A DNA stretch of 64,000 nt from Candidatus Eiseniibacteriota bacterium (GTDB taxonomy: Bacteria > Eisenbacteria > RBG-16-71-46): assembly GCA_031370785.1 (NCBI GenBank), contig JANMQY010000016.1, positions 69,711 through 133,710 on the forward strand, in the 5' to 3' direction. Position numbers: made by a program. Shown here one piece after another: positions 52,001-55,000 of this stretch (the first letter of the stretch is position 1; every line of letters begins with the position of its first letter).

Positions 52001-55000
52001 AAGGTGCCAGCGAGCGAGATGCGGGCCAGAGATTCCTTCGAGTAATCCTCGGCGCCAGTCAGGAACGACCCGCCGAACTGACCGCCGATTCCACCGAACC
52101 CGCGTTTCGGACCGGTCTCCGCTGCGGGTGTCGCCGCGGGTGTCACCGCGGGTATCGCCGCGGGCGCCGCCGGAGTGTTGACGGAGAGCGAGTCCTGGGC
52201 AGCGCACACCGAGGCGACCGTGAGCAGCGCAAAGGCCGCGATGCTCACCCAGCGAAAGCGTGAAATCATGCGAAGGTAACTCCCTGTCCGATCGGAGCGG
52301 CTCAGCGGTGGGCCCGGTGCTGAATGAGCGCGGCAGTATAGGGAGGGCCCACAGCGAGGTCAAGACACGCCACGGTCTGAACTTGGGGCCTGGCGTCCGC
52401 GCGCGCGAACCTGCCCACGAAGGTGTCCGAATGTCGACGACGGCGTCAGCCGCGCGACACCTCGAGCGTCGGCGCGAGGCGAATCGGCGCGCGATTGCGA
52501 CGGACTCGGCCGCTGGAACGGTTGTTGCGGAAGACACGATTCGCATCAACCGGGATCCCATCTCCACATCCGCAACACCATCCTCACCCCGAACCCTCCA
52601 GCACAAGCAGTTCAGAACTTCGCGGGGCCGGCCGCCAACCGGCCCCAGTCCCGGCACTCGCAGCGCGGTTTCGAGCAGCAATGACGGGCTCGCCCGCAGC
52701 CGCGCCTCGCGGACGCACCGAAGCTCTCGATTCTTTGACATCGCGGTTGCCGCGCCCTTAGACTCCCGCCCTCATTTTGCCTGCGCACGTCAGGGCGGCG
52801 CTCGCCTTCCTCGCGCCGCCCGGCTGTTGACCTCTGGGGGATCCGATGACCCGCACCGACCAGTGGAAGCTGGTGGGGGTGCTGGCGGTGACGCTCTTGG
52901 CCGCCTACTACCTCTATCCTTCCTACCGCTACTACACGCTCACGCCGGCACAGCGCGACAAGCTTCCCGCGCAGCAGCTCGCGGAGCTGCGCAGGAAGGC
53001 CATCCATCTCGGACTCGACCTGCAGGGCGGCATGCACCTGGTGCTCGAGGTGGACCGTTCGCGGCTGAATGCCGCCGAGGCCAAGGACGCGCCCGAGCGC
53101 GCGATGGAGATCATCCGTAACCGTATCGACCAGTTCGGCGTGGCCGAGCCGCTGATCCAGAAGGAAGGTGAGGACCGGATCGCGGTGCAGCTTCCGGGGC
53201 TCACCGATCGCCAGCGCGCCATCGACCTGATCGGCAAGACCGCGCTGCTCGAATTCAAGCTGGTGCGCACTCCAGAAGAAGTGAAGAACACCTTCGACAA
53301 GCTGGACGCCTTCCTCGCCGCGCGCGGAGTCGCGGGTCTCGACAGCTCGCTGCGCCGCACGCCACTGACCGGCCATCTGCTCTCGCTCGAGAGCTCGGCG
53401 TTCGTGCGCGACGAGGATCTGCCGACCGTCGAGCGTTTGCTCGCCACGCCCGGCATCGACTCGATCATTCCGGCCGACTCCCAGTTGCTGTGGGGCGATG
53501 CCCATCAGAGTTTCCAGGGCGTCACCGGACGCGCGCTCTACGTGGTCAAGAAAGAGCCCGAGATGACTGGCGGCTCGATCGCGGTGGCCGAGGCGCAGGT
53601 CGGCCTCGACCAGACTAACCCCGGCGCGTGGGGCGTCACCATGAAGCTCACGCCCAAGGGCCGCGCCGACTTCGCGCGCGTCACCGGCAATAATGTCGGC
53701 CGCCAGCTGGCGATCGTGCTGGACGGAGTGGTGAGCTCGGCGCCCAACATCCGCGAGCGCATTCCCTCGGGCAGCGCTTCGATCACCGGCAGCTTCGACG
53801 CCCAGACGGCGCGCGATCTCGCGATCGTGCTGCGCGCCGGCGCACTGCCGGCCCCGGTGCGCATCATCGAGGAGCGATCGGTCGGACCCTCGCTGGGAAG
53901 CGACTCGATCCAGGAGGGCATCACCGCCGGCTTGATCGGAACCGGGATGGTGATCGTGTTCATGGCGATCTACTACCAGCTGTCCGGCCTGATCGCGATC
54001 GTGGCGATGGTGCTCAACATCTTCTACCTGGTCGCGGCCATGGCCGGGTTCGGCGCGACCCTGACCCTGCCGGGTCTCGCCGGCATCGTGCTCACCATCG
54101 GCATGTCGGTGGACGCGAACGTTCTGATCTTCGAGCGCATCCGCGAAGAGCTGCGCAACCAGAAGAGCGTGCGCCAGTCGGTTCAGCTGGGCTACGACAA
54201 GGCGTTCCGCACCATTCTCGATGCCCACGTCACCACGATCATCAGCGCGCTCTTCCTGTTCCAGTTCGGCACCGGCCCGATCAAGGGCTTCGCGGTCACG
54301 CTGACCATCGGGCTGATCGCCAACATGTTCACCGCAGTCGTCTTCACGCGGATGATCTTCGACTTCATGCTGAGCCGCGCGGGCAAGACCGAGCGGATCA
54401 GCATCTGACCGAGAGGCCGCACTCATGATCCAGCTGCTCATCGGGACCAACATCCCGTTCATGCGCTACCGGCGCTTCACGTACATGTTCTCGGGCGCCC
54501 TGCTCCTCGCGACCACGATCTGGCTGGTGATGCATGGAGGGCCGAAGTACAGCGTGGACTTCACCGGAGGCAACCTGCTCCAGCTGCGGACCAGCCGCGT
54601 GCTGCCCGCCGACCAGGTGCGCTCCGCGCTCGATGGGGCCGGAATGCACGGCTACGAGCTGCAGCAGATGACCGGGGACCATCGCGACGAGTACCTGATC
54701 CGACTTCAGGGAGAGATCGGGGGGCAGGACGCGTTCCCGGGGATTCAGCGGGCGATCGAGAGCAAGTTCGACGGGGTCAAAGTCGAGCTGCGGCGCAACG
54801 AGCGGGTCGGGCCCAAGGTCGGAGGCGAGCTGCGCCAGAAGGCTTTGTGGGCGGTGCTCGGCAGCCTCGCCGGAATTCTGCTTTACGTCGGCATCCGATA
54901 TGAGTTCAAATTTGCATTCGGCGCCGTGGTGGCACTCTTCCACGACGTGTTCGTGACCCTGGGACTCCTGTGCTTCACCGGGCGTGAGGTGTCCCTGACC

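What a model noticed while it worked through the whole genome (the two positions that open the first line are those of the whole stretch)
52514..52654. Sixth conserved small RNA: a sigma-54-driven ~105-nt RNA upstream of secD with a C-rich UCCUCACCCC loop and an invariant [...]
A sigma-54 promoter about 20 nt before C129:122259 drives an RNA closed by ACCGGGA/UCCCGG, with a long unpaired C-rich loop (anti-Shine-Dalgarno-like UCCUCACCCC) and an invariant hairpin; secD has its own sigma-70 promoter further down.
Evidence so far: Conserved block in the alignment of 18 secD loci, 5' and 3' anchors matched in 15 of 19; a 31-base pattern found 30 GTDB contigs, mostly labelled Eisenbacteria, 22 of them with the sigma-54 site. 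Fold of 12: 16 pairs, 2 with double-sided changes. No Rfam hit.
(Added by a program. Inside this text positions count along the whole contig: contig position 69,711 is position 1 of the stretch shown here. "Call 12" and the like, gene names such as g00115 and contig names such as C1 are that model's own, and its searches are not shown. The text may have been shortened before it was handed on; [...] marks where a part breaks off. The agent that wrote the report below was given it as the finding of a first reader that could run no searches.)

Follow-up and report, generated by a model that had tools for sequence, protein, structure and literature searches.

The report
Sigma-54 small RNA, spaced cytosine loop
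This is a real, uncatalogued small RNA gene of one family of uncultured bacteria; its paired ends hold open a long loop with evenly spaced cytosine blocks, which more likely docks a protein (possibly the transcription terminator Rho) than blocks ribosome-binding sites.

Summary
Confirmed: a ~107-nt non-coding RNA gene at 52549-52655 (+) behind a sigma-54 promoter (52514-52528). A covariance model finds it in 80 of 88 family relatives and 0 of 117 other genomes of the phylum (limited sensitivity); strict sigma-54 site in 72 of 81 copies. It is a stand-alone gene: four relatives have a convergent gene between it and secD. No Rfam hit, no intrinsic terminator, no expression data. The anti-Shine-Dalgarno label is weak: the conserved core is CACCCC, whose complement is not enriched at ribosome-binding sites, and four candidate partners failed. 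New here: four CC blocks spaced 11-13 nt in a 60-77-nt, 52% C loop, the geometry published for Rho loading sites. Best guess: protein-binding RNA, Rho-terminated (0.4); rival: base-pairing C-rich sRNA (0.33). The scan had not recorded this RNA on other DNA, but has noted other sigma-54 C-rich RNAs.

The parts
52514..52528 (+). sigma-54 (-24/-12) promoter; predicted +1 near 52540 (inferred from the usual 11-12 nt spacing)
   Evidence: strict motif in 72 of 81 copies, loose in 80 of 81; 0 of 67 in control window
52549..52556 (+). 5' strand of closing stem P1
   Evidence: (91% paired, 4 of 8 pairs with double-sided change)
52557..52623 (+). 67-nt C-rich single-stranded loop (60-77 nt in the family, 52% C, 13% G); CC blocks begin at 52557, 52570, 52582 and 52594
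52582..52591 (+). best-conserved loop motif CCYCACCCCG (block 3)
   Evidence: column counts; CACCCC in 74 of 81; mean unpaired probability 0.85
52624..52646 (+). hairpin P2: 8-bp stem, 7-nt loop CNGCCAA (52632-52638)
   Evidence: (98.9% paired)
52648..52655 (+). 3' strand of P1; no intrinsic terminator follows
   Evidence: run of 4 or more T within 60 nt in 5 of 67 copies
52735..52764 (+). separate sigma-70 promoter of secD (neighbour)
   Evidence: motif in 55 of 67 loci
52846..54408 (+). secD (neighbour, followed by secF)
   Evidence: downstream of the RNA in 56 of 63 loci
52335..52363 (-). sigma-70 promoter of the divergent gene (neighbour)
   Evidence: motif in 54 of 67 loci
51457..52269 (-). 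divergent 270-aa gene without Pfam match, possibly an outer-membrane barrel, followed by guaB (neighbour)
   Evidence: OMP_b-brl on 56% of members of one look-alike cluster: a lead only; upstream in 59 of 63 loci

Best explanation
A stand-alone small RNA made on signal by sigma-54 RNA polymerase. Shown by conservation: promoter, two stems, open C-rich loop, independence from secD. Inferred: transcription starts near 52540; lacking an intrinsic terminator, it is ended by Rho loading on the C-rich loop and trimmed back to stem P1, which pairs the two ends and stabilises it; the finished RNA displays four CC blocks at a fixed 11-13-nt pitch plus a conserved hairpin, and acts by binding a cytosine-reading protein (decoy or scaffold). 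Rho fits the geometry best; cold-shock-domain proteins are the other candidates present. That it is a real RNA gene: about 0.9. The confidence given is for the protein-binding mechanism.
For: Block pitch 12.8, 12.7 and 11.4 nt with SD under 1 while the letters between vary; without an alignment, CC starts 13 nt after P1 in 61% and 14 nt after in 30% of 80 copies, and the peak (0.71) exceeds all 300 shuffles (max 0.56). Loop 60-77 nt, 52% C, 13% G. Published Rho sites: C>G, little structure, 60-90 nt (PMC12360218 section 4), YC dimers with 9-13-nt linkers (PMC6144790 passages). Rho is present and rho leaders in the family are C-rich. No terminator. No Hfq. No conserved pairing partner found in four tests. 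Paired ends and a sequence-conserved hairpin are typical of protein-binding RNAs (own knowledge).
Against: No binding or expression data. Composition alone gives most of the Rho-type YC chain (5.48 observed, 4.95 shuffled), and such motifs are common (about 3.5 per kb in E. coli). Rho sites are usually not sequence-conserved, yet CACCCCG is. Only four blocks for six Rho subunits. Three genomes lost the RNA but keep Rho. UCC and CCUCC are enriched as in base-pairing sRNAs. Only four partners were tested; copies are kin, so the statistics overstate.
Confidence: 0.4

Rival explanations
1. Hfq-independent base-pairing sRNA: the open C-rich loop pairs with G-rich ribosome-binding sites or leaders and blocks translation, like RsaE, RepG or CJnc190.
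For: Core motif is unpaired; UCC 3.43 per loop against 2.52 shuffled, CCUCC in 44 of 67 loops against 32.5; U/C exchange at positions that could face G; RNase III and RNase E/G present; precedents in Hfq-less bacteria. GGGGTG precedes relA/spoT in 13 of 30 loci (read).
Against: Complement of the core is not enriched at start codons and the seed scores like its shuffles. Own-genome pairing is no better than cross-genome pairing for the cold-shock gene (-16.0 vs -16.3, n=28), relA (-18.7 vs -19.2, n=25) or secD (-14.1 vs -13.7, n=59). Does not explain the fixed pitch or the conserved hairpin loop.
Confidence: 0.33
2. RNA-RNA sponge: it titrates the family's sigma-54 RNA with a G-rich loop (contig C74, beside an activator gene).
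For: That RNA is in 85 of 88 relatives with a near-invariant G-run; any C-run can pair with it.
Against: Duplex energy -23.4 own-genome, -23.4 cross-genome, -23.3 with shuffled seeds (n=28); it is kept in the three genomes that lost our RNA.
Confidence: 0.07
3. Cis element: leader or Rho attenuator of a sigma-54 transcript of secDF.
For: secD follows in 56 of 63 loci; no terminator between.
Against: In L012, L016, L027 and L063 a convergent gene ends 22-128 nt after the RNA, which keeps its promoter; secD has its own promoter; distance varies 114-366 nt.
Confidence: 0.07
4. tRNA-Gly mimic: hairpin loop as GCC anticodon loop, P1 as acceptor stem, binding a synthetase or anticodon nuclease.
For: Loop ends GCCAA like the genome's tRNA-Gly(GCC) loop, and P1 shares 5 of 7 letters with its tRNA-Gly(UCC) stem.
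Against: Position 33 is C in 59 of 67, not U; loop differs in g15; tRNA-Leu(UAA) matches P1 better (6 of 7); P1 extends up to 13 bp further; no T or D arm, no CCA; the normal tRNA-Gly(GCC) exists.
Confidence: 0.05
5. The RNA is on the minus strand and is a CsrB/RsmZ-type GGA sponge for CsrA.
For: 3-10 GGA per copy on the minus strand; CsrA in 82 of 88 relatives, no FliW.
Against: Promoter and G-U wobbles point to the plus strand; the base that would make GGA varies at every block.
Confidence: 0.03

Closest known systems
C-rich-loop base-pairing sRNAs: RsaE (PMC2790875, abstract read), CJnc190 and RepG (PMC8687705, passages read)
   Same: About 100 nt, unpaired C-rich motif, no Hfq, RNase III available.
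   Different: One 60-77-nt loop closed by the RNA's own ends, four evenly spaced blocks, core is CACCCC rather than UCCC/CCUCC, no terminator, no target found.
CJnc230/FlmE of Campylobacter (PMC11187230, passages read)
   Same: RpoN-dependent, 98 nt, single-stranded anti-SD candidate, nuclease-made ends.
   Different: FlmE is cut from the flgE mRNA and has a 12-nt unpaired stretch with shown targets; this RNA has its own promoter.
Sigma-54 protein-decoy RNAs CrcZ and GlmY (search listings only; mechanism recalled)
   Same: Sigma-54 promoter, repeated single-stranded motifs, stand-alone gene.
   Different: Other motif; Hfq absent here; no activator gene adjacent; partner unknown.
Rho utilisation (rut) sites (PMC12360218 section 4 part 1; PMC6144790 passages)
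   Same: C>G, unstructured, 60-90 nt, YC every 11-15 nt.
   Different: Known rut sites are cis parts of transcripts without conserved sequence; here the stretch is the body of a structured small RNA.
Pxr of Myxococcus (PMC10217877, abstract read; Rfam)
   Same: Small RNA matured by exonuclease trimming from longer forms.
   Different: Three stem-loops; no Rfam match here.

Membership tests
Any Rfam family | score above gathering threshold | tested here: not met
Sigma-54-dependent small RNA gene | conserved -24/-12 site at a fitting distance; RpoN present | tested here: met
   72 of 81; RpoN in 82 of 89
Sigma-54-dependent small RNA gene | discrete transcript | tested here: inconclusive
   three RNA runs held only contigs with flat, DNA-like cover
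Sigma-54-dependent small RNA gene | cognate activator and enhancer | tested here: inconclusive
   no conserved upstream motif; one activator missing in the three losers but also not found in many keepers
C-rich anti-SD sRNAs (RsaE/RepG type) | unpaired conserved C-rich motif | tested here: met
C-rich anti-SD sRNAs (RsaE/RepG type) | conserved motif complementary to the SD or to a conserved target | tested here: inconclusive
   core not SD-complementary; three mRNAs failed; no family-wide screen possible
Rho loading site | 60-90 nt, C>G, unstructured, YC with 9-13-nt linkers | tested here: met
   only slightly above composition for the YC chain
Rho loading site | Rho binding, ATPase activation, termination | not testable with these tools
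   needs in vitro assay
CsrB/RsmZ | several conserved GGA motifs in loops of the transcribed strand | tested here: not met
   1-2 GGA on the plus strand in 65 of 67, the conserved one inside P1
6S RNA / SRP RNA / tmRNA | family model match; role not filled elsewhere | tested here: not met
   each is encoded elsewhere in the genome
Y RNA | Ro60 (TROVE) partner in the genome | tested here: not met
tRNA-like element | U33, T arm, free NCCA end | tested here: not met

The most novel reading that the evidence does not exclude
A signal-induced RNA decoy for Rho: the closed loop offers a spaced loading site whose 3' exit is blocked by a hairpin and the closing stem, so the RNA holds Rho hexamers idle and relaxes Rho-dependent termination genome-wide under sigma-54 control. 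I found no such RNA (listings) or in a 2025 Rho review (0 hits for 'decoy' and 'sponge').
Probability: 0.13. Interest if true: 0.85.

Novelty: new variant of a known kind. Interest (0 to 1): 0.45.

Why it matters
It adds a well-supported RNA family for an uncultured phylum that lacks Hfq and seems to run several sigma-54 RNAs. The evenly spaced C blocks give a sharp, cheap test. If the partner is Rho, it would be a small RNA that titrates a termination factor, a role so far known to me only for proteins; if it pairs with mRNAs, it is a useful but ordinary catalogue entry.

Tried and rejected
Expression: three metatranscriptome runs of one study held a relative's DNA-like contigs (31 and 18 kb, flat depth) or short pieces; no conclusion. 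16S 3' end: not found in the assembly, so the SD was taken from my own gene calls (2753 genes). Targets rejected: cold-shock/zinc-ribbon gene (top hit in this genome, not conserved in 28 pairs; 30 loci of 81 genomes seen), relA/spoT (30 loci of 84 seen), secD. A family-wide pattern search for the complement before ATG gave 1-19 scattered hits per genome and no obvious shared site in the 150 rows shown (647 not listed). A near-perfect complement on contig C94 lies in a gap upstream of a promoter, probably untranscribed. The CACCCCGAC before rho in this genome is not conserved. G-loop RNA as partner. Alternative pairing of the 5' GGG with the loop, which RNAalifold preferred to P1: no covariation; P1 closes a loop too long for the program's interior-loop limit (own knowledge). 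Small ORF: loop lengths fall in all three frames (25/19/23), start codons in only 31 of 67. Co-loss: the three losers keep RpoN, CsrA, Rho and the rho-side RNA. Activator: a 1703-aa kinase-STAND-GAF activator is the only one of 16 present in two keepers and absent in three losers, but was found in only 60 of 88 relatives and missed in complete keepers (6 candidates scored per genome). Homologues outside the family: none.

Full report
Observation. The window shows the stated sigma-54 site at 52514-52528, a closing stem P1 (52549-52556 with 52648-52655), a 67-nt C-rich loop and an 8-bp hairpin P2. It lies between a divergent 270-aa gene plus guaB and secD-secF; each neighbour has its own sigma-70 site. 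Rfam has nothing at threshold for the region, for ten relatives' loci, or for the window.

Distribution. BLAST over 206 genomes of the phylum hit 68 of 88 family relatives, some spuriously. A covariance model built from 63 copies matched 67 of 70 fetched loci and 14 of 22 further family genomes: 80 of 88 relatives. It matched 0 of 76 and 0 of 41 genomes of other families; only 51-61 candidates per genome were scored, so this is a soft negative, backed by nothing above 17 bits in 24 secD loci from those families. One of these negative genomes, G073, is flagged unpublished; no positive claim rests on it. Of the eight relatives without a match, three have contigs ending 130-200 nt before secD, two gave no secD, and three (G121, G123, G128; 95-96% complete, same genus) keep the gene order but show only remnants and no promoter. 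A pattern scan of GTDB gave 54 hits; 44 score 64-90 bits, mostly labelled Eisenbacteria, all 44 identical to loci already held; the other 10 score 17 bits or less.

It is an RNA, on the plus strand. On the 67-copy alignment 95.1% of cells pair, 8 of 16 pairs have double-sided changes and no shuffle or slid register comes near; the alignment was fitted to this structure and the copies are kin, so this leans in favour. RNAalifold recovered P2 but not P1; its alternative has no covariation. Independent support for P1: in 33 of 72 copies it extends 5 or more pairs outward, and in 29 of these it stops within one base of the start site predicted from the promoter. G-U pairs occur in both stems. A strict sigma-54 motif precedes 72 of 81 copies, at 13-28 nt, against 0 of 67 in a control window; RpoN is in 82 of 89 genomes.

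It is a separate gene. secD follows in 56 of 63 loci at 114-366 nt, but in four a convergent gene ends 22-128 nt after the RNA. There is no intrinsic terminator. It is not the genome's 6S, SRP, tmRNA or tRNA-Gly, which lie elsewhere. Ro60, Hfq, RRM proteins and FliW were not found; CsrA, Rho, RNase III and RNase E/G are present. Expression could not be shown.

The anti-SD reading. Start regions here use GGAGG (528 of 2646, controls 35 and 39); the complement of the conserved core, GGGGTG, is in 10 (controls 13 and 19), and the seed pairs with start regions no better than 20 shuffles of itself. In its favour, UCC (3.43 against 2.52 per loop) and CCUCC (44 of 67 against 32.5) are enriched. Three mRNAs and one G-loop RNA showed no advantage of own-genome over cross-genome pairing; relA has GGGGTG upstream in 13 of 30 loci, inside the codons of the preceding gene, a weak lead.

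The spacing. The loop is 60-77 nt, 52% C, 13% G; its first 43 nt are 61% C. Four CC blocks sit 12.8, 12.7 and 11.4 nt apart with SD below 1, while the stretch before P2 varies more (25.5, SD 3.3). Without an alignment the second block still stands out: CC at +13 in 61% and +14 in 30% of 80 copies (one dropped), peak 0.71 against at most 0.56 in 300 shuffles. A pairing seed needs access, not a ruler; a repeated protein surface does (inference). Rho sites are described as C>G, poorly structured, 60-90 nt (PMC12360218, section 4 part 1) with YC dimers 9-13 nt apart (PMC6144790, passages). Against over-reading: such chains are common, composition explains most of the chain length (5.48 against 4.95), and the losers keep Rho.

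Mechanism. Shown: gene, promoter, fold, independence. Inferred: sigma-54 induction, Rho termination and trimming to P1, then protein binding (0.4, of which a Rho decoy about 0.13), or pairing with G-rich leaders (0.33). The activator is unknown: no upstream motif is conserved and the one candidate from the losses is not consistently linked.

Known systems and print. Nearest are C-rich-loop sRNAs (PMC2790875 abstract; PMC8687705 and PMC11187230 passages) and sigma-54 decoy RNAs (listings only). Searches showed no paper on this RNA; of 81 papers naming Eisenbacteria I saw 25 titles, one on CsrA, whose passages predict few Class I CsrAs in this phylum (PMC13443453). Supplements were not read, and large ncRNA screens could list the motif there. 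The scan's own index has no look-alike sequence but holds unchecked notes on other sigma-54, C-rich RNAs.

Verdict. A real, new, family-restricted small RNA; a variant of a known kind with one odd, testable feature. Interest 0.45.

Noticed in passing
L120 (G000:C74:19149-19300, +), outside the window: Second sigma-54 small RNA divergent from rho: long covarying stem, conserved 28-nt C-rich loop, terminator hairpin; BLAST match in 51 of 88 relatives, diverged copies in G121, G123, G128, G129, absent at the locus in G127; no Rfam hit.
   Followed up: partly
L294/L295 (G000:C74:41200-41500, -): Highly conserved sigma-54 RNA with a G-run hairpin loop after a 1033-aa activator gene, in 85 of 88 relatives; appears to be the RNA of note e1-888516.
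   Followed up: partly
L118 (G000:C102): csrA stands outside any flagellar cluster, between trpA and a PAS kinase-activator pair; no FliW; CsrA in 179 of 206 genomes of the phylum, and no clear GGA-repeat RNA in this genome.
   Followed up: partly
window 52765-52845: secD leader carries a conserved CCCTCATTTT word (45 of 67 loci) and a GC hairpin before a GGGGGA-type SD.
   Followed up: no
L175 (G000:C17:46144): 206-aa protein with two treble-clef zinc fingers and a cold-shock domain, in 80 of 88 relatives; a candidate RNA-binding regulator in a lineage without Hfq.
   Followed up: partly
L119-L144 (rho leaders): rho has a long C-rich leader and a variable N-terminal extension across the family, as expected for autoregulation.
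   Followed up: no
L012, L016, L027, L063; L023: A convergent repeat-protein gene is inserted between the RNA and secD in four genomes, and an insertion-sequence-like ORF in one.
   Followed up: partly
L414 (G000:C64:18391): The 1703-aa kinase-STAND-GAF sigma-54 activator is family-restricted: 60 of 88 relatives, 0 of 117 others.
   Followed up: partly
window 55342-56391 and 57292-59472: Two ORFs (349 and 726 aa) after secF have no Pfam match.
   Followed up: no
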